Virus record (IMG/VR): IMGVR_UViG_2531839667_000017
Location: 1-41,654 of that record
Length of the DNA stretch: 41,654 nucleotides
Strand: one strand, 5' to 3'
Origin: a virus
Lineage: Duplodnaviria; Heunggongvirae; Uroviricota; Caudoviricetes
Both the position numbers and the translations under genes were made by a program. This document shows, one piece after another, positions 1 through 21,339 of the stretch (positions are counted from its first letter, which is position 1; every line of letters starts with the position of its first letter). Below the pieces are notes generated by a model that saw only the letters and a list, made by a program, of their open reading frames with translations, ran no database searches and was not told the origin of the DNA.

Positions 1-3000
1 TTATTCTCTGGATGCGATTAATACACCGTTTTTGCGAACTTCAAAACCATAACCCGTGTAACTTGTACCTCCCGGGTTATTACCACTTCCCGGATAGCTA
101 TACGCTATTCCGTTAAAGATAATGGGCGGAATAATGATTTGACGGTCAAAGTTATGATCATCGCTGATGGTGACTGTAACCGTCCCGTTTGGTGTTTCCG
201 TGTTACCCCACGTACCAGCCTGTTTCGGGAATGATTTGGATACAGCTTTAACGAAGTCACCTCTGACCTGAGTCGCCTCCAGCATGCCCTTAATCGTACA
301 GTTTTCATTTACCGTGACATTGTTGAGCGTCCCGGCGTTCGCATTCACACTGCCACTGATATCGGCATTTTTAGCGGTCAGCTTTCCGTCTGATGTCAGG
401 GAAAATGCCGGAGGATTGCCGCCACTGGTAATGGTGGGAGCCGTCAGATATTTCAGGAACACTTCATTCATGAATATCTGATCTCCCTGACCAACAAACA
501 TCGGCGTTTCATTCCCGTTTGCCGGGTCAATAAACGCGATACGGTTAGCGGCAACCAGAAACTGGCTCAGTTTGCCTTCCTCCGAGTCCTCCATGCTGAG
601 GCCAATACCCGCGACATAATGTTTGCCGTCTTTGGTCTGCTCAATTTTGACAGCCCACATGGCATTCCACTTATCGTTGGCGTCCTTCCACTCTTTCGAA
701 AACTCCTCCAGTTTGCTGGCGTTATCCTCCGTCAGCTCGACTTTTTCCAGCAGTTCCTTGCCGAGATGGGATTCGGTTATCTGGCCTTTGAAAAAATCCA
801 GGTAACCTTCCGCATCATCGCTCGCCTGACCGACAGCCTCCACGAATGCCGATTTGCCAACGGTGTTCACACTGCGGATATAAAAGTAATAATCATGGCC
901 CGGTTTGATATTGATACTGGCGGCTATCCAGTACAGCGCCATGCCAAGATAGCGCGCGCTGGTTTCAACCTGCCTGATATCCGCAATCCGCTTTTCCGAG
1001 AACCAGAACTCAAACTGTACCGTCGGATCATAAACCGCAAGATGCGGCGTGGCGGTTATCTGAAAATAGCCCGGCGTCAGCTCAATCTGTGACGGCGCTG
1101 CCGGTGCGGCAATCCTGAACGATACCGACGCCGGATCGCCCTGCTGTCCCCACGCATTTACCGCCCGGACAGTCAGCGTGTAACTCCCCAGCGCCAGTTG
1201 TGTGAAGCGGTATGTGGTTTCCGCCGTCCGGGCTGTGCTGACCAGCCGCTCACTGCCGTCATCCGCTGCCACGGTCAGGCGAAGCATGAAACTCACGCCC
1301 TTCACCACCTTCGGCGTATCCCAGCGGGCCAGTACCTGATACTCCCCGCTGTCTGCGGTGACTTCGGCAGTCAGGTGCTGCACTGCTGGCGGCGTGACAC
1401 CATTCACCGTGCCGCTCTGGTCGCCGTCAAAGTGCGCCCCGTTATCCACGATAGCCTCTTTTTCAGGCACATGCTGCACGGCGGTGATGGCATACGTGCC
1501 GTCGTCGTTCTCACGGATACTCACGCAGCGGAACAGGCGCTGGCGCAGCGTCGGCAGCTTCAGCCCCCACACGCTGTATCCGGCAACGCCGTCAGGAACA
1601 CGGCTCACTTTTACCTTCACGCCGTCGGTGACGGACTGGACCTCCACGCTGACCGGATTGCCACTTCCGTCAACCTGGCTTATCAGCGTGGTACCGGAGG
1701 ATGGCAGCGTGATTTCACGGTCGAGCGTCAGCGTCCGGGTCTGGCTGTTCACCGCCAGTACGCGCCCGCCGGTGCTGATACCGGCATAGTCATCATCGCA
1801 GATTTCAATGACGTCTCCCGGCACATGGCGAAGCCCTTCTGCACCCACGCTGAAGTCCACGGTCTGCGTTTCCAGCAGCTCCGTTTTAATCAGCCACAGC
1901 CCGGCGCGGTGTGCCTGCCCCCGACAGGTACAGCCAAAGGCATCCATCTTCGTGACGTTACGACCGTAACGGGCAATGGCCTGCGTGTCCTCCACAAGCT
2001 CTGTTGCCGTCTCCCAGCCGTTGTTCGGGTCAATCCAGTTCACCTCAACGGCATTATGGCGGTCCTTCAGGGCGCTGAAGCTGTAGCGGAACGGTGCGCC
2101 ATCATCCGGCATCACCACATTACTGCGGTTATAGGTCCACACCTTATCCGATGGCCGGTCCTGCACGAACGTCAGCGTCTGCCCGTTCCATACCGGCATA
2201 CAGCGCATCGCCGAGCAGAAATCACTGAGCACATCCCACGCCTTGCGCTGTGTGGTCAGGTACGCATTACAGGTGATGCGCGGCTCCGTGCCGCCAGAGC
2301 CATCCGGTACCGACTGGTCGCAGTACTGGCCGATGACATACAGCGCCCATTTATCCACATCCGCCGCACCAAGACGTTTCCCCATGCCGTAGCGCGGGTG
2401 GGTCAGCATGTCCCACAGACACCAGGCCATGTTGTCGCTGTACGCTGGCTTAAACGTTCCGTCCCAGATACCGCTGTATTGCCGCGTCTGCGGGTTATAG
2501 TTCGACGGCACCTGCAGAATGCGCCCGCGAAGATGATAATTACGGCTCACCTGCTGGCTGCCGAACTGCTCCGAGTCCACCTGTACACCGACCAGTGCCG
2601 TGTTCGGGTAGCCCTGTTTCACATCGATGATTTCGGTATACGAGGACCAGATTGTTTTGTTCTGCAGCTGGTCTGTGGTGCTGTCCGGTGTCAGCCTGCG
2701 CATCCTGATATTGAACGGTCGCGGCGGCAGGTTATCCACCACCACCGAGGCCAGATACTGTGAGGTGGTTTTGCCCTTAATGGTGATGTCTTTTTCCGTC
2801 ACCCAGCCACCATTACGTTGTATCTGAACCAGCAGGCGGACTTCCGACGGATTCCGGTCCCCCTTTGAAGTGGTTTCCACCAGTGCCTGCACACCGAAGG
2901 TCAGGCGCAGACGGTCGATGTTTGCCGACGTGATGGTCCGGGTGATCGGCGTGTCATATTTCACTTCTGTACCGAGCACCGTCTCGGAGCCGGAGGATTC

Positions 3001-3243
3001 AAATCCCTCCGGCGGTGTCTGCTCCTGCTCACCGGCCCGGAACACCACCGTGACGCCGGATATATTGGTATTCCCCTCACTGTCCAGCACCGGCGTACTA
3101 TTCAGCAGCACGCTTTTTAATCCATCCACCGGACCTTCAACCGGCCCTTCGCTGATGGCATCAATCACACTCAGCAGTTGCGTGGACTTCAGGTTGTCCT
3201 TCGCTTCGCGCGGGGTATGCCCCTTACTGCTTCCTTTGCCCAT
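1..3243 (-). CDS. J: tail tip / host specificity protein J (central fibre)
   Basis: 1080-aa ORF with ATG at 3241-3243 and TAA at 1-3; N-terminal ~950 aa collinear with lambda J as recalled ([24 protein letters not shown]...); C-terminal ~130 aa diverges. Confidence 0.9.
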
Positions 3244-3303
3244 TCGTCATGCTCCATAAACGACAAAACCGCCCGGAGGCGGTTTCACATGAAATATTTT
3301 GCA

Positions 3304-3975
3304 TCAGCGGCCAATCACCACAACCTGACCACCGTCCCCTTCGTCTGCCGTGCTGATCTCCTGAGAAACCACGCGTGACCCCACGCGCATTTCACCGTAC
3401 AGAACCGGCAGAACATTGCCCTGGGCAACCATGTTATCCAGTGAGGAGAAATAGGTGTTTTGTTTGCCGTTATCCGTTGTCTGTGTACGGGGAGTTCTGG
3501 CTTTCGGTGCCAGCATTTGCGCCACACCACCGAGCACCATACTGGCACCGAGAGAAAACAGGATGCCGGTCATACCACCGGCCCCAATGGCTGCCCCCCA
3601 TGCTGCAAGGGTGGCTCCGGCGGTAAAGAATGATCCGGCAATGGCGGCAGCCCCCAGGACAATCTGGAATACGCCACCTGACTTGGCCCCGGCGACTCTG
3701 GGAACAATATGAATCACAGCGCCATCAGGCAGAGTATCATGTAACTGCGCCGTTAACCCGGACGTGCTGACGTCCCGCCCGGCAATCCGTACCTGATACC
3801 AACCGTCGCTCAGTTTCTGACGAAACGCCGGAAGCTGTGTGGCCAGCGCCCGGATGGCTTCAGCACCCGTTTTCACACGAAGGTCGATGCGGCGGCCAAA
3901 TCGTTGTAAATCCCCGTAAAGGCAGATGCGTGCCATGCCCGGTGACGCCAGAGGGAGTGTGTGCGTCGCTGCCAT
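3304..3975 (-). CDS. I: tail assembly protein I
   Basis: 223 aa, MAATHTLPLASPGMARICLYGDLQRF... matches lambda I; position between K and J. Confidence 0.88.
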   Translation of the reverse strand: MAATHTLPLASPGMARICLYGDLQRFGRRIDLRVKTGAEAIRALATQLPAFRQKLSDGWYQVRIAGRDVSTSGLTAQLHDTLPDGAVIHIVPRVAGAKSGGVFQIVLGAAAIAGSFFTAGATLAAWGAAIGAGGMTGILFSLGASMVLGGVAQMLAPKARTPRTQTTDNGKQNTYFSSLDNMVAQGNVLPVLYGEMRVGSRVVSQEISTADEGDGGQVVVIGR

Positions 3976-4616
3976 TTGTCGGTATACCTCTCTCGTTTGC
4001 TCAGTTGTTCAGGAATATGGTGCAGCAGCTCGCCGTCACCACAGTAAATGGCGGCATGATTCGGCACCGATGAACCAAAGCAGCACAGCAGCACATCGCC
4101 CGGCTGCGCCGCTGACAACGGCACCTGATACAGCCCCGTTGCCTCCAGATTATCCAGATAGAGATTCTGACCGTGACGCCACCAGTCATCCTCCCGCGTA
4201 AAATCCGGCATCTCAATCCCCGCCAGATGGTAAGCGTCCCGGAACAGCGTGTAACAGTCCGTCACCCCGTGCTCAAAGCGCCGCCCGGTGAGATGCGGCA
4301 CACAGCGGAACTTGTGAATCGCCCCCCGGCAGACCAGCCACCACGGCAAATCACTCTGCACCTGCAGCCGCCGGTCGGCCTCACTCAGCCAGGGCAGACC
4401 ACCGGGATGACTGTGGACCAGCGCCACAATCTCACCCTGCATCTCTGCCTGCAGCCAGTCCTCCGGCGACATCCGGAAATAATCCTCCGGCTCACCGGAG
4501 ATATTCACGCAGGGAAAATATCTTTCCCCCTCCGGCGTTCTCACCACGAAGCCGCACGACTCCGCTGGCGCACATCGCCGGGCGTGCGCCAGAATCGCTG
4601 ATTCTGTCTCTGTCAT
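3873..4616 (-). CDS. K: tail assembly protein K (MPN/JAMM plus NlpC/P60-like domains)
   Basis: 247-aa ORF with HSHP...D JAMM-like motif and C-terminal Cys/His peptidase-like region; ATG at 4614-4616 is 5 nt downstream of the L stop; 3' end overlaps I by 103 nt as in lambda. Confidence 0.85.
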   Translation of the reverse strand: MTETESAILAHARRCAPAESCGFVVRTPEGERYFPCVNISGEPEDYFRMSPEDWLQAEMQGEIVALVHSHPGGLPWLSEADRRLQVQSDLPWWLVCRGAIHKFRCVPHLTGRRFEHGVTDCYTLFRDAYHLAGIEMPDFTREDDWWRHGQNLYLDNLEATGLYQVPLSAAQPGDVLLCCFGSSVPNHAAIYCGDGELLHHIPEQLSKRERYTDKWQRRTHSLWRHRAWHASAFTGIYNDLAAASTFV

Positions 4617-4621
4617 GGGAT

Positions 4622-5320
4622 TTACTGCGAAAGTTTGTTAATGGAAAGGAAGCCGCCAAAGTTGCCGACGTTATTGCGAAACTTACAGCCACTCAGGCAT
4701 TTGCTGCATTTATCCTTCGTGATATCGGACGTCGGCTGGTCATATTCATCCGCGACCGCCGGACCGCTATAACCGCACTCATCACCGCGATAGGTCCAGG
4801 TACAGGTGTTGGCCAGCATGATGCGCCCCGGAAAAACAGCACCATCCGTTTCCGTCGGTGTGGACAACACAAAGGAGGCACTGACCGCGCTCAGTTCGCT
4901 GCACTGCTCGATGCGCCAGCGGCTGATCACCTCCTGCTCCGGATCGGCATCGCTGTTTCCGTTGACGAAGTTCACCGCATCCAGAAAACGGGCGTAAACC
5001 TTACGCCTGACCACCGTTCCGCCGACCAGACTCTGCAGATCTTCCACCATCCCGGTGACCATGCCGTACAGGTTAGAGACTGCCAGCGTGGGGCGCGTAC
5101 TGGTGCCTTTGCCATTCAGTTCAAAACCACTCCCCTGAATGGGATACGCCAGATACTGCCGCCCCTGCCAGGTGACCGGCTCACCTTTTTCGTTCTGCTC
5201 ATTACAGAAAAAATAACGTTCACCACCGACCTCTGTCAGATCGATTTCCCAGAGCACCACGCTGGCCGACTGCTCCGCACGGGTGCATTCATTCAGTGTT
5301 TCCTGCCGGATATCCTGCAT
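4622..5320 (-). CDS. L: minor tail protein L
   Basis: 232 aa, same length as lambda L with strong similarity; conserved position. Confidence 0.9.
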   Translation of the reverse strand: MQDIRQETLNECTRAEQSASVVLWEIDLTEVGGERYFFCNEQNEKGEPVTWQGRQYLAYPIQGSGFELNGKGTSTRPTLAVSNLYGMVTGMVEDLQSLVGGTVVRRKVYARFLDAVNFVNGNSDADPEQEVISRWRIEQCSELSAVSASFVLSTPTETDGAVFPGRIMLANTCTWTYRGDECGYSGPAVADEYDQPTSDITKDKCSKCLSGCKFRNNVGNFGGFLSINKLSQ

Positions 5321-5649
5321 CAGTTCACCACCTGTTTAAACTCTGCGCTGAACTCAACACGCAGCATACTGACCCGCGACGTCCATTTTGCGCAGGTCAC
5401 CTTTATCTGCCGCCAGTCATAAGGCGGCGTCCACAGAAAGGCTTTCCAGCCTCCGTGCTCTGCCAGAAACGATTCCAGCGCCGTGGCCTCCCAACGGGGG
5501 ACAGAAATCGTCACGCTGTACGTTTTCAGGTTGGCATTCAGCCCGGCAGGCGCGCGCTGGGAGTAACCATCACCAAAGCGCACCTCCCTGACGGAAGGAG
5601 TCGAAGCCACATCCATACCCGGTTTCACTTTCCAGCGGAAGGTTTTCAT
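5320..5649 (-). CDS. M: minor tail protein M
   Basis: 109 aa, MKTFRWKVKPGMDVASTPSVREVRFGDGYSQ...; lambda M-like. Confidence 0.9.
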   Translation of the reverse strand: MKTFRWKVKPGMDVASTPSVREVRFGDGYSQRAPAGLNANLKTYSVTISVPRWEATALESFLAEHGGWKAFLWTPPYDWRQIKVTCAKWTSRVSMLRVEFSAEFKQVVN

Positions 5650-8225
5650 CGTCCACCTCCGGAGAACAGACCACCATCACGCATCTGCCCGGTCACAACA
5701 TCCATTGCCGCCTTACGGGCTACGTCATAAACCGCCTTCAGCGCCTGTGGCCCTATCTGACCGTTCGTGCCGTCGTTGTTAATCACCACATGGTTATTCT
5801 GCTCAAACTTCCCGGACGCCTGCGACCGACTGTCCGCCATGCTGCCCGGTGTACCGACATAACCGCCGGTGGCATAGCCGCGCATCAGCCGGTAAAGATT
5901 CCCCACGCCAATCCGGCTGGTTGCCTCCTTCGTGAAGACAAATTCACCACGGTGAACAATCCCCGCTGGCTCATATTTGCCGCCGGTTCCCGTAAATCCT
6001 CCGGTCGCAAAATGGAGTTTCGCCGCAGCGGCCTGAATGGCTGCACCACCTGACGCTGATGAGCCGCCACCGGTAGCACCTCCAATGGCGCTGCCGATAC
6101 TCCCGACAATCCCCACCATTGCCTGCTTAAGCAGAATTTCTGTCATCATGGACAGCACGGAACGGGTGAAGCTGCGCCAGTTCTGTTCACTGCCGGTCAG
6201 CATCGCCGCCATATTCTGTGCAATACCATCAAAGGTCTGCGTGGCTGCACTTTTAACCTGCGACATACTGTCCGTGGCGCTCTCTTCCCACTCACTCCAG
6301 CCGGACTTCAGGCCTGCCATCCAGCTCCCACGAAGCTGGTCTTCAGCCGCCCAGGTCTTTTTCTGCTCTGACATGACGTTATTCAGCGCCAGCGGATTAT
6401 CGCCATACTCCTCCTTCAGGCGCTGTTCCGTGCCTTCCCGTTCTGCCTGCCGGTCAGTCAGCCCCCGGCTTTTCGCATCAATGGCGGCCCGTTTTGCCCG
6501 TTGCTGCTGTGCGAATTTATCCGCCTGCTGCGCCAGCGCGTTCAGGTGCTCCTGATACGTAACCTTGTCGCCAAGTGCAGCCAGCTGGCGCTTGTACTCC
6601 AGCGTCTCATCTTTATGCGCCAGCAGGGATTTCTCCTGTGCAGACAGCTGGCGACGTTGCGCCGCCTCCTCCAGTACCGCGAACTGATTCTCCGCCTTCC
6701 ACAAATCCCGGCGCTGCTGGCTGATTTTCTCATTCGCTCCGGCATGCTTCTCCAGCGTCCGGAGTTCTGCCTGAAGCGTCAGAAGGGCAGCATGAGCACT
6801 GTCTTCCTGACGATCGCCCGCAGACACCTTCACGCCGGAGTGCTTCGGCTTTTTCAGCGTCGCTTCATAGTCCTTTTTCGCCGCCGCCATCAGCGTGTTG
6901 TAATCTGCCTGCAGGATTTTCCCGTCCTTCAGTGCCTTGTTCAGTTCTTCCTGACGGGCGGTATATTTCTCCAGCGGCGTCTGCAGGCGTTCGTAAGCCT
7001 TCTGCGCCTCTTCGGTATATTTCAGCCGTGATGCCTCAGAGTCGGCCCAGTCCTTTGCTGCCATCTCTCTGGCCTTTTCAAGATCGGCCTTCAACGTGGC
7101 GGCTGAAAGCCCAAGTTGCGCATTCACTCTGTCCTCCCATGCTCCACGGAGATTGGCAAGAAATGCTGAGGTTTTACCGCGCCGGTGGCTTCGGCTCTGA
7201 TACCACTGCCATTTTTTATCCGCTTCATCAAAAGCCTTTTCAGCTTTGGCGAGCATATCTGCAGAGGAGTCCGGGCGGCCAATATCCAGCACCGCATCCC
7301 ACATGGATTTGAATGCCTGTGCAGTCTTGTCAGCCCAGGTCTCCAGCGTACCCATGTTCTCTTTCAGGCGGCGGGTCTGGTCATCAAACCCTTTCGTTGC
7401 GGCCTCGTTCGCCGCCTGCAACGCCCCGGCCCCATCGCCGGAACGCTGCAACTGAGCAACATACGCAATCTGTTCCGCCGTCACGTTATGGAACTGGCGC
7501 GCCATCGCCGTCAACCCAGACGTCGGGTCAGTGGTCAGCTTCCCGAAGGCTTCAGCGACCTTGTCCACCTCCACGCCGGATGCAGAGGAGAAACGCGCCA
7601 CACTCTGGCTGATTGCCTCAAACTGCTCACCACCACGCACACCGGCATTCACCAGCGCCGTCAGTGACTCGCTGGTCTGGTTAAACGTCAGCCCTGCCGC
7701 CTGCCCGGATCTGGACAGGGCCAGCATACGATCTGCCGTCAGTCCCGCCTGATTACCGGAAAGGACCAGCGTTTTGTTGAAATTAGACAGGGTTGAGTCA
7801 CCCTGATACCAGGCATACGCCAGCGCACCGGTCGCCACCGCTAGCGAAGTGATACCAACCATCGGCAGGGTGATCGCACCGGCAAGCCCCCTGAACATGG
7901 GGATCATCCCGCCGAAGGAGTCCTTCACCTGACCGCCCTGTTGCAGCAGGATCAGCCACGGACTTTGCCCGCCTGCAAGCTGCGTGGCCACGTCGGTGAA
8001 CTGCGCAGGCAGCATACGCATGGCAGCTTTATACTGCCCGACGGAAATCCCCGCTTTCTGTGCAGCCAGCGCCTGTCGGTTCATCGACTGTTCAACGACT
8101 GCCGCTGTTTTTTTCGCATCACTTTCCGTACCGGAAAAATGACGCCTGACTCTGGCCATCTGCTCGTCAAATCTGGCCGCATCCAGACTCAAATCAACGA
8201 CCAGATCACCTACCGGTTCAGCCAT
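5646..8225 (-). CDS. H: tail tape measure protein H
   Basis: 859 aa, Ala/Gln-rich coiled-coil centre and Gly-rich C-terminus; lambda H-like; follows G-T. Confidence 0.9.
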   Translation of the reverse strand: MAEPVGDLVVDLSLDAARFDEQMARVRRHFSGTESDAKKTAAVVEQSMNRQALAAQKAGISVGQYKAAMRMLPAQFTDVATQLAGGQSPWLILLQQGGQVKDSFGGMIPMFRGLAGAITLPMVGITSLAVATGALAYAWYQGDSTLSNFNKTLVLSGNQAGLTADRMLALSRSGQAAGLTFNQTSESLTALVNAGVRGGEQFEAISQSVARFSSASGVEVDKVAEAFGKLTTDPTSGLTAMARQFHNVTAEQIAYVAQLQRSGDGAGALQAANEAATKGFDDQTRRLKENMGTLETWADKTAQAFKSMWDAVLDIGRPDSSADMLAKAEKAFDEADKKWQWYQSRSHRRGKTSAFLANLRGAWEDRVNAQLGLSAATLKADLEKAREMAAKDWADSEASRLKYTEEAQKAYERLQTPLEKYTARQEELNKALKDGKILQADYNTLMAAAKKDYEATLKKPKHSGVKVSAGDRQEDSAHAALLTLQAELRTLEKHAGANEKISQQRRDLWKAENQFAVLEEAAQRRQLSAQEKSLLAHKDETLEYKRQLAALGDKVTYQEHLNALAQQADKFAQQQRAKRAAIDAKSRGLTDRQAEREGTEQRLKEEYGDNPLALNNVMSEQKKTWAAEDQLRGSWMAGLKSGWSEWEESATDSMSQVKSAATQTFDGIAQNMAAMLTGSEQNWRSFTRSVLSMMTEILLKQAMVGIVGSIGSAIGGATGGGSSASGGAAIQAAAAKLHFATGGFTGTGGKYEPAGIVHRGEFVFTKEATSRIGVGNLYRLMRGYATGGYVGTPGSMADSRSQASGKFEQNNHVVINNDGTNGQIGPQALKAVYDVARKAAMDVVTGQMRDGGLFSGGGR

Positions 8226-9056
8226 ACCGGACTCCTCCTGCGATCCCTTCTGATACTGTCATCAGCATTACGTCATCCTCCGTCATGTCCGCCACATCCG
8301 GGGAAGCGGGGATAACTTCATTCCCGTCAGGGCCAAAACGAACGCCTCCGGCAAGCCCTGCCGCTTTCTGCATCAGCACATCATCTTCAGGCTCTTCGTC
8401 AGCCTCACGCCGGCTCAGCAGACTGAAATCCAGCGGATGCATATCCGGATCGCTGAAAAACAGGCTGAGCACGGTGTACGTCAGCCCGGAAAAGTGCATA
8501 TCCAGCAGAACATCATGAAAATAATGGGTACTGTAAAAGCGGTGCCAGTCGGCATACTCCGTGGATGACATCCCGGCAAGCATGGCGCGCCAGTCGGGTC
8601 GCCCCATCTCACGCGCCAGTTTCAGGGCAAAACTCAGCTCACCGTCGAACACTTTCCCGCAGAAACAGGCTCTGCAGGCCCGGCGTCATCTGTCTGTTCA
8701 GGGGCATTATTCACAACAAACTCAGACATTCCGGACAGACGTAACACAACGTTTTCAGCCTGAGCAATTGCCTCCGTGGGCCAGGTGGTAAGCACTTCCT
8801 GCTCAATCTGCGTAATGGCTTCATTCATGGACGGCAGCTTTGTTTTCTGCGGATGGTTATGCCACAGAGACATCGCCACCAGAAACGCCCCGCCTCTGAT
8901 AAGATCCTCTACAGACACCTGCAGGTTGCCACTGGATTCAGCCTTTTTTTCCTGCTCTTTCAACCAAGCAAGATGCTCAATACGCTGCAGGGCTGACAGT
9001 TCAGAAAGCGTGACGGTCACGCCGTTATGTTCAAATGATTCGGTTTTCAGGAACAT
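8218..9056 (-). CDS. T: tail assembly chaperone G-T fusion, made by programmed -1 ribosomal frameshift at GGGAAAG
   Basis: After a -1 slip at G GGA AAG the reading continues VFDGELSFALKLAREMGR... (T frame, 8218-8652), which has no independent start with an RBS; the arrangement is the lambda G/GT one. Confidence 0.85.
8634..9056 (-). CDS. G: tail assembly chaperone G
   Basis: 140 aa ending ...PVSAGKCSTVS; slippery heptamer G GGA AAG is in the last codons (minus-strand equivalent of 8652-8658). Confidence 0.9.
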   Translation of the reverse strand: MFLKTESFEHNGVTVTLSELSALQRIEHLAWLKEQEKKAESSGNLQVSVEDLIRGGAFLVAMSLWHNHPQKTKLPSMNEAITQIEQEVLTTWPTEAIAQAENVVLRLSGMSEFVVNNAPEQTDDAGPAEPVSAGKCSTVS

Positions 9057-9071
9057 CTCTGACTCTCCGGA

Positions 9072-9812
9072 TTAGCTGTCGGTGACGTTGATTTCTGCAA
9101 CCGCAGCAAACTCACCATTACCGGATACGACCGGAATGTTGACCTTGCCTGCAGCAACGCCCTTCACGGTGATGGTCATCCCACTGACCGACACGGTGGC
9201 TTTTGTTTTATCCGCTGACACCGCACGGAAGCTCTTGTCGGTTGCGCCTTCCGGCTGGAATGCCACGGTCAGCGTGGTGCTCTGCCCTTTCACTACGGAA
9301 GCACTGGCTGGCGTTACCGTCATGCCGGTTGCCGCTGTCACCGTGCTGCGATCTTCTGCCATTGACGGACGGCCCACATTGGTGACCTTCACCGTACGGG
9401 TGATCACTTCCTTCGCCGTCACTGCCTTACCGATACTGCTGACCCAGCCACGGAACACATCGACCGTGCCGTTCGGGAAGCGGATTTTATAGGCACGGGT
9501 ATCGCCTTCATTAAACCACGCCAGCAGCGCCTGCTGCCCCTGCTCTCCGGGCATCCACGCCAGCGTGAAGCTGGTATCTCCGGCGGATTTCTGCCCCTGC
9601 CCGGTCGCGGCCCAGTCCGGATCTTCATCATCGAGATAACTGTCGTCATAGGACTCTGCGGTCAGTTCGCCGGGCGTCAGTTCTTTAACTTTTGCCAGAC
9701 GCGACCAGTCAACGTCTGAAAGCGGGTTCGCATAAGGGTCACCGTTCCCCTTATAAACCCACAGGGTGGTTCCGGCCCCTTTCACCGGTGCCAGAGGATT
9801 TGGTGTTGGCAT
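9072..9812 (-). CDS. V: major tail tube protein V
   Basis: 246 aa from ATG 9810-9812 ([22 protein letters not shown]...) with GAGGA SD; Ig-like C-terminus; ORF-track start at 9842 is probably an over-extension. Confidence 0.88.
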
Positions 9813-9819
9813 ATCGTCC

Positions 9820-10215
9820 TCACATTTCATAGGTAATGACATAAGTCAGATCGGCTGAACTCCACAGGCCCGCATCATCGTCGCGCCGGTAGTCATAGCC
9901 ACTGGCCACCATACTGGTGATCAAATCTGACAGTGCCGGGATATCGTTCATCACCGGATAAATCCGGGACTCCATCCACGCATCCAGCTCTGAATCCGGT
10001 ACCTGAGCAGGCAGGAAAACTTCAATATGCAGCTCCGCCTGCCAGGTATCGCTGTCCAGCTCTTCGCCCGTGTATTCAGCGCCGGTGAGATAAACGGCAA
10101 CTGCCGGAAAATCCGCCTCATCAAAAACAGCGGGGCGACCATCAAAAAGCGTCGCCCCGGTGTCATGCTTCTCCAGTGCATCCAGTACGGCTGCACGGAG
10201 TTCAGTATGTTTCAT
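9820..10215 (-). CDS. U: tail terminator protein U
   Basis: 131 aa, lambda U-like; start codon overlaps the Z stop (ATGA). Confidence 0.9.
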
Positions 10216-10745
10216 CGCTTTATTACCATCCTCAGTTGATGCTGCAGCGCATAGCCCAGCTCTTTCGGAAGACGCTCACGCCGTATCTGTTCAATATTCT
10301 GTTTAAACGCCGTGGTCAGCGGCACCGCCATCGGGATTTTCACCACATCAATGGGGTAACGGTTTTTCCCGGCCACACGCTGCATGACATGCCAGCGACC
10401 ATTTTTTAATCGCTGGATAAATGCCCGCTGATAACGATGCTGACCGGCCCGTAGCGTACTGTTGGGACGACTTCCGGTGATCCGTATCCCCAGTTTGATG
10501 ACAGGTAAATCACCGCGGTTAACAATGATTTTTACGTGCGGATTTTTGACCGTGGCCTTTTTCAGTCTGGCCCTTTCCTTTACCAGTTTTCGCCGCACCT
10601 TTGTCTCACGGGCAACCTGTGACGCCGACTGATTCATTGCCGTTGTGGCCACGCGGTTAATGGCCATTGCGGAGGCACCGGGCACTGCCGTTTTGCTGAT
10701 ACGGCTGAGGTTTTCAACGGCCTGCTCAAGACCTTTTATGGCCAT
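10212..10745 (-). CDS. Z: tail completion protein Z
   Basis: 177 aa, lambda Z-like sequence and position. Confidence 0.85.
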   Translation of the reverse strand: MAIKGLEQAVENLSRISKTAVPGASAMAINRVATTAMNQSASQVARETKVRRKLVKERARLKKATVKNPHVKIIVNRGDLPVIKLGIRITGSRPNSTLRAGQHRYQRAFIQRLKNGRWHVMQRVAGKNRYPIDVVKIPMAVPLTTAFKQNIEQIRRERLPKELGYALQHQLRMVIKR

Positions 10746-10756
10746 ACCTCCTCCTT

Positions 10757-11110
10757 TCAGCGGCGACGGTTAACGGCAGGCGGTACGCCCCGCCCAAGCC
10801 AGAGATGACAGCTTCCGCCATCATCCGGCGAAATCCGGTCTATCCAGAAGTTTTCCTCACCGATGCTCAGCGTGTCGCCGCGCCGCAGCTGCCGCACATC
10901 ATCAGTCCGGACAAACAGGGACGGGCTGGAGCCTTCAACGCGCACGCCCTGTCCGGCATAGCTGATATTTTCAGGGTCATCAAAAACACCACGTATCACA
11001 GCACCGGACTGCTCACCGGATGTCATGGTGGCTGACGTTCCCATGTACCCGCGTATCGTTTCATCGGCGCAGGCAATGGCAGCATCGAACAGGTTATCGA
11101 AATCAGCCAC
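10757..11110 (-). CDS. FII: head-tail joining protein FII
   Basis: 117 aa, GTG start at 11108-11110 preceded by GGGAGG; MADFDNLFDAAIA... lambda FII-like. Confidence 0.9.
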   Translation of the reverse strand: MADFDNLFDAAIACADETIRGYMGTSATMTSGEQSGAVIRGVFDDPENISYAGQGVRVEGSSPSLFVRTDDVRQLRRGDTLSIGEENFWIDRISPDDGGSCHLWLGRGVPPAVNRRR

Positions 11111-11121
11111 AGCGCCTCCCG

Positions 11122-11517
11122 TTATTGCATTCTGGCCAGGCCGCGCTCTGTCATTTCAGCTGCCACACCGGCAGAGACACGGAACGCCGTTCCCGGCAGC
11201 ACAAATGCCACAGCCTCATCCCGCGTGGCGTGAAGTGCATCAGTATGCAGCGTCACCAGTGCCACAACCGTGACCAGATCAGCCGTATCAGTCACGGTAT
11301 CCGGCTGCGCTGATACCAACTCATTTTCATGCCCGGTCAGCGCATTTTCCGGGCTGACAGATGTGTCCTGACCGGCAGCGTCATCCGTGTCATTAAGCTC
11401 CTCTTCCAGCTCTGCCACACGGAGTGCCAGTTCTTCTTTCGTCCCCGTCAGGCTGACATCACGGTTCAGTTGCTCACCCAGCACCTGAAGACGGGCAATC
11501 AGTTCATCTTTCGTCAT
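11122..11517 (-). CDS. FI: DNA packaging protein FI
   Basis: 132 aa from ATG 11515-11517 (MTKDELIARLQ...) preceded by GGAGGAG; lambda FI-like. Confidence 0.85.
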   Translation of the reverse strand: MTKDELIARLQVLGEQLNRDVSLTGTKEELALRVAELEEELNDTDDAAGQDTSVSPENALTGHENELVSAQPDTVTDTADLVTVVALVTLHTDALHATRDEAVAFVLPGTAFRVSAGVAAEMTERGLARMQ

Positions 11518-11558
11518 GGACTCCTCCACAGAGAGAAAATGGCCCCGAAGGGCCATGA

Positions 11559-12584
11559 TTACGCCAGTTGTACGGACACGAACGCATCAGGGTCAGCCAG
11601 CAGCATCAGCGGTGCTGACTGAATCATGGTGAACTCACACGCCGGATCGCCGGTGGTCACCCAGTTTTTCGGGTAGCGGGCAGAGGCGTTAATACCTTCG
11701 CGCTGTGCGTCCGCATCCTGAATGCAGCCATAGGTGCGCAGACCGCGTGCCTGAGTGTTCCCCAGCACCATCGTGTTGTCCGGCAGGAAGTTCTTTTTGA
11801 CGTCGTTTTCCACGTACTGTCCGGAATACACGACGATCGCCGTATCGCCATACATCCCCTTATAGGACACCGCTTCGCCCAGGTCTTTTACCGCAGTCTC
11901 CAGCTCGGAATTAGAGCCGCGACGGGTATCCAGCTTCTCCTTGACGGCTTTGAAGGAACGGAACAGCGCCCAGCCTTTCGGATCAAACACGATGATGTTC
12001 ACCACACCGCTGGCGTTCAGCGCGTAGGCTTCGATATCGTCGGTCGGGTCATACGTGGACTTGTCACGCTTGCTCCACTCCGTGCCACCGGACTGTGTGA
12101 TGTTGTTCGCCGCACTGCGGCCCATATCCACCTCAACCGGATCGAAGGCTTCACCGGTCATGGTGTATTTGCCCTTGAGCACAGCAGAAACGGCCTGCAT
12201 CTCTTCGACCTGAGCAATGGCAAGCTCCTCATCACGCATGTTTTGCATGATGATGCGACGGCGGCGGTAAGCCGGATCCGCCAGATTCTGTGGATCTTCA
12301 TCCGGCAGGCGACGCAGGGTCATCTGCGGATTCACCTCATGCTTCGGCTTGACATATCCCGGCGTAAATTCAGAGGTGGAGCCACCACGGGAGCGGATAA
12401 CCTCACCGGAAACAATTGGCGAAACGTACAACGCCATGTTTACCAGTCCCGGAATTTGTGAGAGATAGACTTTCTCCGTGGTGAAGGGATAGCTCTCACG
12501 GAAAAAGAGACGCAGAAACAGCGGATCAAACTTAAATTTCTTCTCATTTGCCGCCAGCAGCTGGGCGGTTGTGTACATCGACAT
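11559..12584 (-). CDS. E: major capsid protein E
   Basis: 341 aa from ATG 12582-12584 (MSMYTTAQLLAANE...); near-identical to lambda E as recalled. Confidence 0.92.
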   Translation of the reverse strand: MSMYTTAQLLAANEKKFKFDPLFLRLFFRESYPFTTEKVYLSQIPGLVNMALYVSPIVSGEVIRSRGGSTSEFTPGYVKPKHEVNPQMTLRRLPDEDPQNLADPAYRRRRIIMQNMRDEELAIAQVEEMQAVSAVLKGKYTMTGEAFDPVEVDMGRSAANNITQSGGTEWSKRDKSTYDPTDDIEAYALNASGVVNIIVFDPKGWALFRSFKAVKEKLDTRRGSNSELETAVKDLGEAVSYKGMYGDTAIVVYSGQYVENDVKKNFLPDNTMVLGNTQARGLRTYGCIQDADAQREGINASARYPKNWVTTGDPACEFTMIQSAPLMLLADPDAFVSVQLA

Positions 12585-12639
12585 AAAAAAATCCCGTAAA
12601 AAAAGCCGCACCGGCGGCCTTTAGTGATGAAGGGTAAGG

Positions 12640-12972
12640 TTAAACGATGCTGATTGCCGTTCCGGCAAACGCGGTCCGTTTTTTCGTCTCGTCGGTGGCA
12701 GCCTCCGGCCAGAGCACATCCTCATAACGGAACGTGCCGGACTTGTAGAACGTCAGCGTGGTGCTGGTCTGGTCAGCAGCAACCGCCAGAATGCCAACGG
12801 CAGCACCGTCGGTGGTGCCATCCCACACAACCAGCTTACGGGTGGAGGTATCCGGCATCAGCGGGGTCATTGCAGGCGCTTTCGCACTCAATCCGCCGGG
12901 CGCGGTTGCCGTATGTGCCGGGTCACTGTTGCCCAGCGGCTGGTAATGGGTAAAGGTTTCTTTGCTCGTCAT
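12640..12972 (-). CDS. D: head decoration protein D
   Basis: 110 aa from ATG 12970-12972 ([27 protein letters not shown]...); lambda D-like. Confidence 0.92.
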
Positions 12973-12981
12973 AAACATCCC

Positions 12982-13587
12982 TTACACTGGTGTGTTCAGC
13001 AAATCGTTAACGGCATCAGATGCCGGGTTACCTGCAGCCAGCGGTGCCGGTGCCCCCTGCATCAGACGATCCAGCGCAGTGTCACTGCGCGCCTGTGCAC
13101 TCTGTGGTGCAGCTGCCAGAATGCGGCGGGCCGTTTCCACGGTCATACCGGGGGTTTCGGCCAGCACGCGTGCCTGTTCTTCGCGTCCGTGAGCCTCCTC
13201 ACAGTTGAGGATCCCCATAATGCGGCTGTTTTCTGCCGCAACCGCTGCGGTGATCTGCGCGTTCACATCCGGCTGCGCCGCGCTGGCGTTTTTGCCCTCC
13301 GTCGCTTGCACCACGCCAGTAACGTCAGCCTGCGAAGCAGTGGCTGAAACAGTTGTTGATTGAGTCTCTTTGGTCATTCGCCCTCCTGAGAGACGGGATT
13401 TACGTGTATCCAGTGCATCACGCATGACGGTGATCGCATCGGTACTGTTAACAAGTTCATCAGCCAGTCCGGCATCAATGGCCTCCTGACCGCTGTACAC
13501 TGCAGCCTCGGTATCCAGCACAGCCTGCACGGACAGGCCGGTATATGCCGATACCTTCTGTGCAAACATCCGGCGGGTTGCATCCAT
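12982..13587 (-). CDS. nu3: scaffold protein Nu3 (in-frame internal start within C)
   Basis: ATG at 13585-13587 (MDATRRMFAQKVSAYTG...) in the C frame gives 201 aa sharing the C-terminus of C, as for lambda Nu3. Confidence 0.7.
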   Translation of the reverse strand: MDATRRMFAQKVSAYTGLSVQAVLDTEAAVYSGQEAIDAGLADELVNSTDAITVMRDALDTRKSRLSGGRMTKETQSTTVSATASQADVTGVVQATEGKNASAAQPDVNAQITAAVAAENSRIMGILNCEEAHGREEQARVLAETPGMTVETARRILAAAPQSAQARSDTALDRLMQGAPAPLAAGNPASDAVNDLLNTPV

Positions 13588-14281
13588 CCGGGACTGCAGT
13601 GTTTCCCGGACATCATCCGGTAGATGGCTGTAGGGGTTGCCATCCACCTTATGGCTGCCGCTGTAAATCAGCGTGATTTCCACGCCCTGTTTCTCCAGCG
13701 CAGCGCCGTAATTACTGTGAGCCATCATGACGCCGATGGAGCCTGTCCGGGCGGTCTGCGTGACCAGACGCCGGGAGGCGGCACTGGCAAGCAGCTGACC
13801 TGCACTGCAGTTCATGTCGTTGGCCAGCGCCCATACCGGTTTTATGTCACGCACACGGGCGATGATGTCAGCGCAGTCAAATGCCCCCGCCACCATCCCG
13901 CCGGGCGTGTCCATATCGAGCAGAATGCCGTCCACCATCGGATCGCTGGCAGCCTGTTGCAGACGGGCGATAATGCCGTTGTAACCGGTCATCCCCGAAT
14001 ACGGCTGCAGCGCCCGCGTCCGGCTGACCAGCGTGCCGGAAACCGGCAGCACGGCGATGCCGTTCATGACCTGATAACTGCGGGCCTGTCGTGGTCCGTC
14101 ATCATCACCGGATAACGCCAGCGTCGCGGGTGCCTCTCCGGCAGTCAGGCTGTCACCGGACACCGCATCTGTCAGGCGGCTGATCCCAAGCTGGCCTGCA
14201 AGCGCACAAAAGAAAACCCGCGCATAGGCGGGTTCAAGCATCAGCGGCTCATTAAAGGCCATGCTGGCAATATGCGGGAGA

Positions 14282-14301
<20 letters not shown>
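12982..14301 (-). CDS. C: capsid assembly protease C (S49 family)
   Basis: 439 aa from GTG at 14299-14301 (VTAELRNLPHIASMAFNEP...); lambda C-like; 5' end overlaps the 3' end of B. Confidence 0.85.
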
Positions 14302-17982
<3,681 letters not shown>

Positions 17983-18008
<26 letters not shown>

Positions 18009-18528
18009 TCAGCAACCCCGGTATCAGTTCATCCAGCGCGGCTGCTTTGTTCATGGCTTTGATGATATCCCGTTTCAGGAAATCAACATGTCGGTTTTCC
18101 AGTTCCGGAAAACGCCGCTGCACCGACAGTGGGATCCCGTCGAGAATACTGGCAATTTCACCTGCGATCCGCGACAGCACGAAAGTACAGAATGCGGTTT
18201 CCACCACTTCAGCGGAGTCTCTGGCATTTTTCAGCTCCTGTGCGTCGGCCTGCGCACGCGTAAGTCGATGGCGTTCGTACTCAATAGTCCCTGGCTGGAG
18301 ATCTGTCTCGCTGGCCTGCCGCAGTTCTTCAACCTCCCGGCGCAGCTTTTCGTTCTCAATTTCAGCATCCCTTTCGGCATACCATTTTATGACGGCGGCA
18401 GAGTCATAAAGCACCTCATTACCCTTGCCACCGCCTCGCAGAACGGGCATTCCCTGTTCCTGCCAGTTCTGAATGGTACGGATACTCGCACCGAAAATGT
18501 CAGCCAGCTGCTTTTTGTTGACTTCCAT
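17983..18528 (-). CDS. nu1: terminase small subunit Nu1
   Basis: 181 aa, MEVNKKQLADIFGASIRTIQNWQEQGMPV...; lambda Nu1-like; 3' end overlaps A. Confidence 0.92.
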
Positions 18529-18760
18529 TGTTCATTCCACGGACAAAAACAGAGAAAGGAAACGACAAAGGCCAAAAAGCCCGTTTTCAGCACCTGTCGT
18601 TTCCTTTCTTTTCAGGGGGTATTTTAAATAAAAACACTAAGTTACGACGAAGAAGAACGGAAACGCCTTAAACCGGAAAATTTTCATAAATAGCGAAAAC
18701 CCGCGAGGTCGCCGCCCCGTAGCCTGCCGGATCGCCGGAAAGGACCCGCAAGCGTTCTGG
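18529..18760 (-). other. cos site (cosB-cosN-cosQ region); cosN 12-nt cohesive end at 18706-18717
   Basis: Minus strand reads GGGCGGCGACCT CGCGGGTTTTCGCTATTTATGAAAATTTTCCGGTTTAAGGCG..., matching the lambda left end as recalled, directly upstream of Nu1. Confidence 0.85.
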
Positions 18761-20222: not shown

Positions 20223-20716
20223 TGCTGCCCCCACAAACAGACTTCACGCTCAATATCACGACGGGTCATCAGCCCTTTCCATTGCTTACCGCCAGCGTAT
20301 GTCCAGCGACGTAGCTGGTCACATGCGCCTTTGATATCACCCTGGTTTATTTTGCGAAGAAGCGTCGATGTTCTGAAATTACCAGCGCCCACGTTGTAAA
20401 CGAACGAGTAAAGAGCGCCGCGCGTTGTTTCCGGTATATCGACTTTGATGTACGGGTTAATTTGTCTGGCGACCGTGGCAAGGTCTTTATTCAGGAGGGC
20501 TTTGCATTCTGCTTCGGTATACGTTTTACCGGGAATGATGTCTTTTCCGGTGTGTCCGTGACATACAGTCCATACGCCAACGATATCTTCGTATGGTATG
20601 TAGCTGACACCTTCCAGGCCATCGTCACCACTCGGACCAGTGATGAGCACAGACGCTATGGCAACAGCCCCACCACCAATAGCAGCAGCAACAGCCTTGC
20701 GTAATGATGGCGACAT
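20219..20716 (-). CDS. R: SAR endolysin (lysozyme with N-terminal signal-anchor-release domain), phage-21 R-like
   Basis: 165 aa; Gly/Ala-rich weakly hydrophobic N-terminus ([20 protein letters not shown]) followed by a lysozyme domain; very similar to phage 21 endolysin as recalled. Confidence 0.85.
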
Positions 20717-20931
20717 TATTCACCTCTCGCAGCCTTACGCTTATCTTCTTTAATCTTGAAATAAAGGTTTGTCAGATACGTCAGCAAGCCAAACACCAGG
20801 CTACCCAATACGCCTATTGCCACCCACTGGGATGGGGAGACTTTGTCCAGCAACTGCAGTAGCCAGTATCCCGTCCCCACCGCTGACGTGGTGTATGACA
20901 CACCTGTTGTGATTTTTTCCATCTGGTACAT
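20716..20931 (-). CDS. S: pinholin, phage-21 S-like, with dual translational starts (ATG 20929-20931 and ATG 20920-20922)
   Basis: 71 aa [26 protein letters not shown]...[14 protein letters not shown]; two TM segments; Met1/Met4 dual-start motif; stop overlaps endolysin start (TAATG). Confidence 0.85.
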
Positions 20932-21339
20932 ACCCCGTCTCCCGTTATCCGGAAGCTGACAACAATAAAAAGCCACCAGTTAATTCCTGATGGCCCTGAT
21001 GCATAAACGTCATAATACCTGACTGTTATGATTGACAATAATGATAATGTTTATATAGAAAGGTTCCCGATGTGTGTTACATATCATTTCTCCACGGGGA
21101 ATATCCCCACGCCAGCGCAGACTCTTTTACCCGTTCTCTTCTGCGCTGGCTCTTTTTTATTATGCTGCTGCATTTACCTCTGGCACCATGCTTTCTATCT
21201 CAACACAATACGTGGTACTTCTTGTAACCAATATCATAACGATTAATCGACATAGAATTTCTCCCGTGTACAGGAACAGAGTTAAAAAGCCGGAACCGGA
21301 ATCAAATCACAGGATGACCATCTGCCAGTGGCAGGTCAT

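What the first reader, a model, noticed from the sequence alone, without database searches (positions are those of the whole stretch)
8634..8658. Programmed -1 frameshift site GGGAAAG producing the G-T tail chaperone
Seen: G ends ...GCG GGA AAG TGT TCG ACG GTG AGC TGA on the minus strand; a -1 slip on G GGA AAG opens the downstream frame (VFDGELSFALKL...), which otherwise has no start with an RBS. Established: lambda and many siphoviruses make G and G-T in a fixed ratio by this mechanism.
Basis: partly seen in the sequence, partly recalled or inferred. Interest (0 to 1): 0.4.

Follow-up and report, generated by a model that had tools for sequence, protein, structure and literature searches.

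The report
Lambda-type G/GT tail chaperone frameshift site
This is the well-known ribosomal slip site that lets phage lambda and its relatives make a small amount of a fused G-T tail-assembly protein, here in a lambda-like prophage of E. coli with the site identical to lambda's, so it is real but ordinary.

Summary
On the minus strand, gene G (9056..8634, 140 aa) ends ...GCG GGA AAG TGT TCG ACG GTG AGC TGA. The heptamer G_GGA_AAG lies at 8658..8652 in the X_XXY_YYZ register. A -1 slip enters the T frame (8652..8218) and gives a 279-aa G-T fusion.

The window is a lambdoid prophage with lambda late-gene order. G and T sit between the tail tube gene V and the tape measure gene H. An 87-nt stretch around the site (8674..8588) is identical to phage lambda, where this frameshift has been shown experimentally (about 4%, gpG:gpGT about 30:1).

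In 31 distinct homologous junctions from Enterobacterales, A_AAG is invariant in the short G/T overlap, as GGGAAAG, AAAAAAG, GGAAAAG or GGTAAAG. It lies 0, 3 or 15 nt before the G stop. In 29 of the 31, the T frame has no start codon ahead of its conserved N-terminus.

A GTG sits at the junction and GenBank and RefSeq use it as the T start, but it has no usable Shine-Dalgarno sequence.

The only non-textbook item is a weakly supported, clade-limited RNA structure predicted 7 nt downstream of the heptamer.

Verdict: already known, low interest.

The parts
8634..9056 (-). Gene G (tail assembly chaperone gpG, 140 aa), the zero-frame product
   Evidence: ORF. PF06894 E 1.7e-53 and TIGR01674 E 4.9e-56. 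84% aa identity to lambda G. The start has an anti-SD duplex of -6.6 kcal/mol.
8652..8658 (-). Slippery heptamer G_GGA_AAG (Gly-Lys in both frames), the -1 shift site
   Evidence: Sequence and register. Identical to the lambda site. A_AAG is invariant in 29 aligned homologues. Literature.
8634..8636 (-). G stop codon TGA, 15 nt after the heptamer; bypassed by shifted ribosomes
8218..8652 (-). T reading frame (-1 relative to G), 144 codons counted from the junction GTG; it encodes the C-terminal part of gpGT
   Evidence: ORF. PF06223 E 2.7e-14 and TIGR01715 E 1e-55. 99% aa identity to lambda T.
8218..9056 (-). G-T fusion coding region: 9056..8652 in frame 0, base 8652 re-read, then 8652..8218 in frame -1; 279 aa with junction ...PVSAGK|VFDGEL...
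   Evidence: Constructed. Full-length match to phrog_32165, E 4.3e-128.
8634..8685 (-). G/T overlap (52 nt): the -1 frame opens at 8685 after a TGA at 8688..8686
   Evidence: The overlap contains a single in-register slippery heptamer.
8574..8644 (-). Predicted RNA structure downstream of the site: an outer 8-bp helix starting 7 nt after the heptamer and enclosing two hairpins. Its function is not established.
   Evidence: MFE -40.6 kcal/mol, z -3.08. Comparative and codon-resampling tests give weak to moderate support. The literature says no stimulator seems to be involved.
9072..9812 (-). Gene V (major tail tube protein), upstream neighbour
   Evidence: tblastn with lambda V: 95% identity, full length.
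5646..8225 (-). Gene H (tape measure protein, 859 aa), downstream neighbour; its ATG overlaps the end of T
   Evidence: ORF. tblastn with lambda H: 89% identity. Strong SD, -10.3 kcal/mol.

Best explanation
This is the programmed -1 ribosomal frameshift site of the G/GT tail assembly chaperone pair of a lambda-like prophage.

Most ribosomes translate G in frame, stop at TGA 8636..8634 and release gpG (140 aa). A small fraction slip back one base while GGA and AAG occupy the P and A sites. tRNA-Gly re-pairs on GGG and the single E. coli tRNA-Lys (mnm5s2UUU) re-pairs on AAA. These ribosomes then read GTG TTC GAC... in the T frame and make gpGT (279 aa).

By homology with lambda, gpG and the G part of gpGT coat the tape measure protein gpH. 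The T part recruits the tube protein gpV. Neither protein ends up in the virion.

Shown here: the sequence, register, frames, homology, synteny, identity of the site to lambda's, and conservation of the site across relatives. Inferred from lambda experiments: the slip itself, its rate (about 4%, ratio about 30:1) and the chaperone role.
For: - **Sequence and register:**
- **Family assignment of both ORFs:**
- **Fusion protein:** it is collinear with a PHROG family whose profile is about the length of the fusion.
- **Gene order:** V-G-T-H, with all lambda late genes intact.
- **Identity to lambda:** 87 nt around the site are identical to lambda, and T is 99% identical.
- **Close relatives (9 loci) and species-level homologues (29 loci):** every intact locus has N_NNA_AAG in register in a 16-82 nt overlap, located 0, 3 or 15 nt before the G stop. 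The heptamers are GGGAAAG, AAAAAAG, GGAAAAG and GGTAAAG.
- **Invariance:** AAAG is invariant across 29 aligned sequences.
- **No independent start in relatives:** in 29 of 31 unique junctions the T frame has no ATG, GTG or TTG before its conserved N-terminal motif E-L-x-F..LARE.GR.DWRA. In many the first start is at codon 25. That conserved segment can therefore only be reached from G.
- **No RBS in the window:** no usable SD precedes the junction GTG or the internal ATGs.
- **Annotation elsewhere:** phage LLS annotates the join and the frameshift site.
- **Literature:** PMC3296357, PMC5009743 and PMC7618472.
Against: - Nothing in the sequence argues against it.
- The heptamer on its own is no rarer than chance.
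- A GTG at the junction could in principle start T independently, and both GenBank J02459 and RefSeq PGAP annotate T that way.
- No expression data exist for this particular prophage. Its Z gene carries a 15-aa in-frame deletion, so I cannot say whether the prophage still makes tails.
Confidence: 0.95

Rival explanations
1. T is an independent gene translated from the GTG at 8652..8650, as annotated in GenBank lambda and RefSeq E. coli records, and the heptamer is incidental.
For: A GTG lies at the start of the T ORF. J02459 and PGAP list T as a separate 144-aa CDS.
Against: There is no SD at a functional distance: the best duplex is -4.3 kcal/mol on GGGA, 0-1 nt from the GTG. The GTG occurs only in the two lambda-type sequences (window and lambda) among 31 unique junctions, while the protein sequence just after it is conserved in all of them. 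The reviews read here describe only gpG and the frameshift product gpGT as the products of this region.
Confidence: 0.03
2. The same -1 ribosomal frameshift, but its efficiency is tuned by an RNA structure 7 nt downstream (8644..8574). This would be a 3' stimulator or modulator not recognised for lambda G-T.
For: - The 92 nt after the heptamer fold to -40.6 kcal/mol, z -3.08.
- The same outer-helix-plus-hairpin architecture is predicted independently for LLS, HK225 and L119 (z -4.3, -4.3, -3.75).
- 80% of cells are paired on 29 sequences, against 25-41% for slid controls. Pair 28/96 shows AU:18, GC:6, CG:1.
- Synonymous-codon resampling that keeps the protein gives z about -2 (p 0.014-0.049) in 4 of 6 sequences.
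- Synonymous entropy is low exactly at the hairpin arms, L14, A15, R24 and A25 of T.
Against: - RNAalifold does not recover the structure (consensus -2.6 kcal/mol).
- Most pairs never vary or only break.
- The structure is absent in the Kosakonia, Klebsiella, Pantoea and Proteus homologues, which keep the slip site.
- There is no signal in VT1-Sakai or L120 after codon resampling.
- The sequences are related, the structure was derived from one of them, and the arms encode the conserved peptide LARE...WRA with common E. coli codons.
Confidence: 0.12
3. The fusion is made by transcriptional slippage (RNA polymerase stuttering on the A run) rather than by the ribosome.
For: None specific. The site contains AAA.
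Against: The run is only three A's, and four or five in relatives. From general knowledge, productive transcriptional slippage needs longer homopolymer runs. In lambda the G:GT ratio changes with tRNA-Lys U34 thiolation, which points to the ribosome (PMC3296357).
Confidence: 0.01

Closest known systems
Bacteriophage lambda G / G-T (gpG, gpGT) programmed -1 frameshift at G_GGA_AAG (Levin, Hendrix & Casjens 1993; Xu, Hendrix & Duda 2004, 2013, 2014, as cited in PMC5009743 and PMC7618472)
   Same: Same heptamer, same register and same 15-nt distance to the G stop. 87 nt around the site are identical. The T domain is 99% identical. The V-G-T-H order is the same, and the host species and tRNA-Lys are the same.
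   Different: G is only 84% identical in protein; its middle part is mosaic. The -1 frame opens 12 nt later than in lambda because of a TGA at 8688..8686. Neither difference touches the mechanism.
N15 / HK225 / mEp213 / LLS-type G-T frameshift at G_GAA_AAG, and VT1-Sakai at A_AAA_AAG
   Same: Homologous G and T proteins, the same position of the site relative to the G stop, and the same A-site A_AAG.
   Different: The P-site codon differs (GAA or AAA instead of GGA), and T is shorter (114-135 codons). Three Pantoea/Enterobacterales loci use G_GUA_AAG, where only the A-site tRNA can re-pair well.
E. coli dnaX -1 frameshift (A_AAA_AAG)
   Same: The same A-site Lys AAG-to-AAA slip on the single E. 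coli tRNA-Lys (PMC5009743).
   Different: From general knowledge of that system, dnaX uses an upstream SD-like element and a strong downstream hairpin, shifts at about 50% and gives a shorter product. Here there is no upstream SD, no established stimulator, a rate of about 4%, and a longer product.

Membership tests
Lambda-type G/GT tail assembly chaperone frameshift | Two ORFs between the major tail (tube) gene and the tape measure gene | tested here: met
   V is at 9812..9072, G at 9056..8634, T at 8652..8218 and H at 8225..5646, all on the minus strand. The order is the same as in lambda.
Lambda-type G/GT tail assembly chaperone frameshift | The downstream ORF overlaps the end of the upstream ORF in the -1 frame | tested here: met
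   52-nt overlap, with T in the -1 frame relative to G.
Lambda-type G/GT tail assembly chaperone frameshift | A slippery heptamer X_XXY_YYZ, in zero-frame register, inside the overlap | tested here: met
   G_GGA_AAG at 8658..8652 is the only such heptamer in the overlap.
Lambda-type G/GT tail assembly chaperone frameshift | Sequence homology of both parts to gpG and gpT | tested here: met
   PF06894 at 1.7e-53 and PF06223 at 2.7e-14. TIGR01674 and TIGR01715, both equivalog models and both above their cut-offs. 84% and 99% identity to lambda G and T.
Lambda-type G/GT tail assembly chaperone frameshift | The downstream ORF lacks its own translation initiation signals | tested here: met
   A GTG is present, but no SD lies at a usable spacing. 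29 of 31 homologous junctions have no start codon before the conserved N-terminus of T.
Lambda-type G/GT tail assembly chaperone frameshift | The site is conserved among relatives while the flanks diverge | tested here: met
   AAAG is invariant in 29 sequences down to 36% T identity. The upstream flank is variable.
Lambda-type G/GT tail assembly chaperone frameshift | Both products are made at a fixed low ratio and both are needed for tail assembly | not testable with these tools
   Shown for lambda (PMC3296357, PMC5009743). Inferred here from the identical site and the same host species.
-1 PRF signals with a 3' stimulatory RNA structure (dnaX / IS / retroviral type) | A conserved, covarying stem-loop or pseudoknot 5-9 nt downstream of the heptamer | tested here: inconclusive
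   A stable structure is predicted 7 nt downstream. Covariation is limited to one or two pairs, RNAalifold does not recover it, and it is absent in the distant homologues.

The most novel reading that the evidence does not exclude
In the E. coli/Enterobacter lineage of lambda- and N15-like phages, the G-T slip site may be followed, 5-8 nt downstream, by a selected RNA structure. It would consist of an outer 8-10 bp helix enclosing a GGCGCG/CGCGCC hairpin at window 8644..8574. Such a structure could set or buffer the roughly 4% frameshift rate. That would contradict the prevailing view that the tailed-phage G-T shift works without stimulatory signals.
Probability: 0.12. Interest if true: 0.4.

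Novelty: already known. Interest (0 to 1): 0.1.

Why it matters
It matters mainly for annotation. The correct products of this region are gpG (140 aa) and a 279-aa gpGT made by ribosomal slippage, not a free 144-aa T protein. GenBank J02459 and RefSeq PGAP still list T as a separate CDS. Sequence matching this region is found in 3,694 of 5,426 complete E. coli genomes, so the same annotation issue is likely to be widespread. Biologically it adds nothing new: it is another copy of a textbook recoding signal. The one item that could be worth a bench test is whether the predicted downstream structure modulates the frameshift rate.

Tried and rejected
- **Bare heptamer frequency as evidence.** Rejected: 4 copies observed against 5.8 expected. 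Only the register and the context are informative.
- **Independent start for T.** Scored every ATG, GTG and TTG in the T frame against the anti-SD. None reaches the values of the better late-gene starts.
- **Upstream SD-like stimulator (dnaX type).** None found in the 20 nt before the site.
- **Structure spanning the heptamer** (8700..8590). z = +0.33, so nothing there.
- **Viral-contig scan for diverse relatives.** The best 80 loci kept were all 99% identical, so it was useless for comparison. Genome contigs gave the useful diversity.
- **RNAalifold on 29 sequences.** It did not recover the single-sequence structure.
- **Xu et al. 2013 (PMID 23851014 / PMC3762263).** Could not be read because it is not held. 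Levin et al. 1993 is not held either, so what is known experimentally about lambda's downstream sequence rests on the review statement.
- **PDB sequence search with the fusion.** No solved relative.
- **Other in-register shifty heptamers.** GGGAAAG at 40827(-) lies in an antisense ORF inside what looks like the host gene next to the attachment site. TTTAAAG at 37140(+) lies in an unnamed early-region ORF. Both were judged to be chance.

Full report
**1. The observation**

Reading the minus strand gives ...cct gtt tct gcg gga aag tgt tcg acg gtg agc tga. GGGAAAG occupies 8658..8652 and the TGA occupies 8636..8634. These are exactly the limits of the finding.

The ORF list and translations show gene G at 9056..8634 (140 aa, ending PVSAGKCSTVS). 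A second ORF runs 8652..8218 in the -1 frame and reads (V/M)FDGELSFALKLAREMGRPDW.... Counting codons from the G start puts GGA at 8657-8655 and AAG at 8654-8652, so the heptamer is in the canonical X_XXY_YYZ register.

The -1 frame is closed by a TGA at 8688..8686 and opens at 8685. The overlap is therefore 52 nt, and it contains only this one in-register slippery heptamer.

The heptamer by itself is not unusual: 4 copies in the window against 5.8 expected. An in-register X_XXA_AAG is rare, however, at 2 in 15,122 codon positions of long ORFs. About 0.002 would be expected by chance in a 17-codon overlap.

**2. What the surroundings are**

The window is a lambdoid prophage lying in reverse orientation. 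Window 274..18717 is collinear with lambda 18474..1 at 94-97% identity. Window 38879..40324 matches lambda xis/int up to the att core. The remaining 1.3 kb carries one long ORF that looks like a host gene.

tblastn with the lambda late proteins nu1 through J gives one full-length hit each (J runs off the window end), with no frame breaks. G and T sit between V (9812..9072) and H (8225..5646), as in lambda.

G matches Pfam PF06894 (1.7e-53) and T matches PF06223 (2.7e-14). The fusion built by a -1 slip is 279 aa with junction SAGK|VFDGEL. It matches the NCBIfam equivalogs phage_lambda_G and phage_lam_T in tandem. It also aligns end to end with phrog_32165, a family whose profile is about the length of the fusion (4.3e-128).

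**3. Identity with the experimentally characterised site**

The 1.1-kb region is 93.7% identical to lambda J02459 and up to 98% identical to other Escherichia phages. Sequence matching it is found in 3,694 of 5,426 complete E. coli genomes.

Over the junction, 87 consecutive bases (window 8674..8588) are identical to lambda. This stretch runs from 16 nt before the heptamer to 64 nt after it. T is 99% identical to lambda T. G is only 84% identical, because its middle part is mosaic.

For lambda the literature held here gives the following:
- GGGAAAG is the G/GT slippery sequence. About 96% of ribosomes stay in frame. tRNA-Lys(UUU) U34 thiolation restrains the shift, and the gpG:gpGT ratio matters for phage yield (PMC3296357).
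- A 30:1 molar ratio is crucial for tail assembly. gpG and the G part of gpGT bind the tape measure protein, the T part binds the tube protein, and neither is in the virion (PMC5009743).
- G_GGA_AAG is highly shift-prone in E. coli (PMC5009743; also PMC7618472).

**4. Comparative evidence gathered here**

Nine phage loci and 29 species-level chromosomal loci from Enterobacterales, down to 36% T identity, were examined. Every intact locus has an in-register N_NNA_AAG inside a short G/T overlap of 16-82 nt:
- GGGAAAG in the lambda, Stx2a, PhiR12_1 and E. albertii loci.
- AAAAAAG in VT1-Sakai.
- GGAAAAG in LLS, HK225, mEp213 and most of the chromosomal loci.
- GGTAAAG in the two Pantoea loci and an unclassified Enterobacterales genome.

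The site lies 15, 3 or 0 nt before the G stop. In the 29-sequence alignment the four bases AAAG are invariant while the upstream flank varies freely. This fits a mechanism whose essential part is the A-site Lys AAG-to-AAA re-pairing.

The T frame has no ATG, GTG or TTG between its opening and codon +6 in 29 of 31 distinct junctions. In many, the first start is the conserved Met at codon 25. Yet residues 7-25 of the T frame (E-L-x-F...L-A-R-E-x-G-R-x-D-W-R-A) are among the most conserved of the protein. That segment can only be translated by ribosomes arriving from G.

The junction GTG is found only in the two lambda-type sequences (window and lambda) among the 31 junctions. It has no Shine-Dalgarno sequence at a usable spacing. 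Its best anti-SD duplex is -4.3 kcal/mol, on the heptamer itself, whereas most of the late-gene starts scored gave -6.6 to -12.7 kcal/mol and a few ORF-list starts scored weaker.

Database practice is mixed. J02459 and RefSeq PGAP list T as a separate CDS from the GTG. HK630 calls it 'tail assembly protein GT'. Phage LLS annotates the join and the site explicitly.

**5. Mechanism**

The best explanation (confidence 0.95) is the classical one. With GGA in the P site and AAG in the A site, both tRNAs slip back one base onto GGG and AAA. Decoding then continues GTG TTC GAC... past the G stop, giving gpGT at a few per cent of gpG.

The sequence, register, homology, synteny and conservation are shown here. 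The slip itself, its rate and the chaperone roles are inferred from lambda, whose signal is identical and which uses the same host species.

Independent initiation of T (0.03) and transcriptional slippage (0.01) are disfavoured for the reasons given above.

**6. The one loose end**

The 92 nt after the heptamer are predicted to fold into an outer 8-bp helix (CGGUGAGC/GCUUGCCG) that begins 7 nt after the site. It encloses two hairpins, the stronger being GGCGCGU...GCGCGCC. The MFE is -40.6 kcal/mol, z -3.08.

Evidence in favour of a selected structure:
- The same architecture is predicted independently for LLS, HK225 and an Entomohabitans prophage (z -4.3, -4.3, -3.75).
- On 29 sequences, 80% of cells pair, against 25-41% for slid controls. 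One pair covaries (AU:18, GC:6, CG:1).
- Resampling synonymous codons while keeping the protein gives z about -2 in four of six sequences.
- The hairpin arms coincide with unusually low synonymous variation.

Evidence against:
- RNAalifold does not recover the structure.
- The structure was derived from one of the aligned sequences.
- The sequences are related.
- The arms encode a conserved peptide using common codons.
- The structure is absent in the Kosakonia, Klebsiella, Pantoea and Proteus homologues, which keep the slip site.

I rate a functional modulator at about 0.12 and list the reporter experiment that would decide it.

**7. Verdict**

This is an already known, textbook recoding signal in a very common E. 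coli prophage type. Interest is low (0.1).

Noticed in passing
window 8574..8644 (-): A stable RNA structure is predicted starting 7 nt after the slippery heptamer (z -3.08). The same architecture is predicted in several E. coli and Enterobacter-type relatives but not in distant ones. Support from covariation and codon resampling is weak to moderate.
   Followed up: yes
window 8634..9056 versus 8218..8652: G is only 84% identical to lambda G in protein, while the adjacent T is 99% identical. In the short stretch aligned (8760..8560), the mismatches to lambda cluster upstream of about 8675, which suggests a mosaic (recombination) junction inside G, upstream of the slip site.
   Followed up: partly
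window 10212..10745 (-): The tail gene Z homologue carries an in-frame 15-aa deletion relative to lambda Z (177 vs 192 aa) and is only 79% identical. In the closest E. coli genome (EC12) the same gene is annotated as frameshifted.
   Followed up: partly
window 5646..8225 (-): The tape measure gene H encodes 859 aa against 853 in lambda. A poorly aligning segment lies at window 7037..7270. This would predict a very slightly longer tail if length scales with H.
   Followed up: no
window 38879..40324 and 40371..41654: The window contains xis, int and the lambda att core position (the match ends at lambda 27724). It is followed by a 427-aa ORF that runs to the window end and looks like the host gene flanking the lambda attachment site. 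I identify it as ybhC from memory; this was not tested. If so, the window includes one prophage-host junction.
   Followed up: partly
loci L090-L104, L118, L123, L130 (genome-contig scan): T sequences 98-99% identical to the query turn up on short or low-coverage contigs (coverage about 1) in assemblies of unrelated bacteria, including Neobacillus, Oceanobacillus, Kitasatospora, Chromatium, Leeuwenhoekiella, Shewanella and Pseudoxanthomonas. This is most likely lambda DNA contamination of those assemblies.
   Followed up: no
L001 (J02459 10115..10549), L135 (E. coli EC12 locus 20549..20983): GenBank lambda and RefSeq PGAP annotate T as a free-standing CDS from the junction GTG, with no ribosomal-slippage join. 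Phage LLS (PQ299149) annotates the join and the site. Annotation is inconsistent across records.
   Followed up: yes
L128 (Shigella flexneri CP182557): In this homologous G-T locus no G ORF or slip site could be reconstructed and the frame carrying the T match is interrupted early (28 codons). It is probably a degraded prophage.
   Followed up: no
window 40821..40827 (-) and 37134..37140 (+): Two further in-register shifty heptamers occur in long ORFs. GGGAAAG lies in an antisense ORF inside the putative host gene. TTTAAAG lies in a 151-aa early-region ORF of unknown function. Both were judged to be chance.
   Followed up: partly
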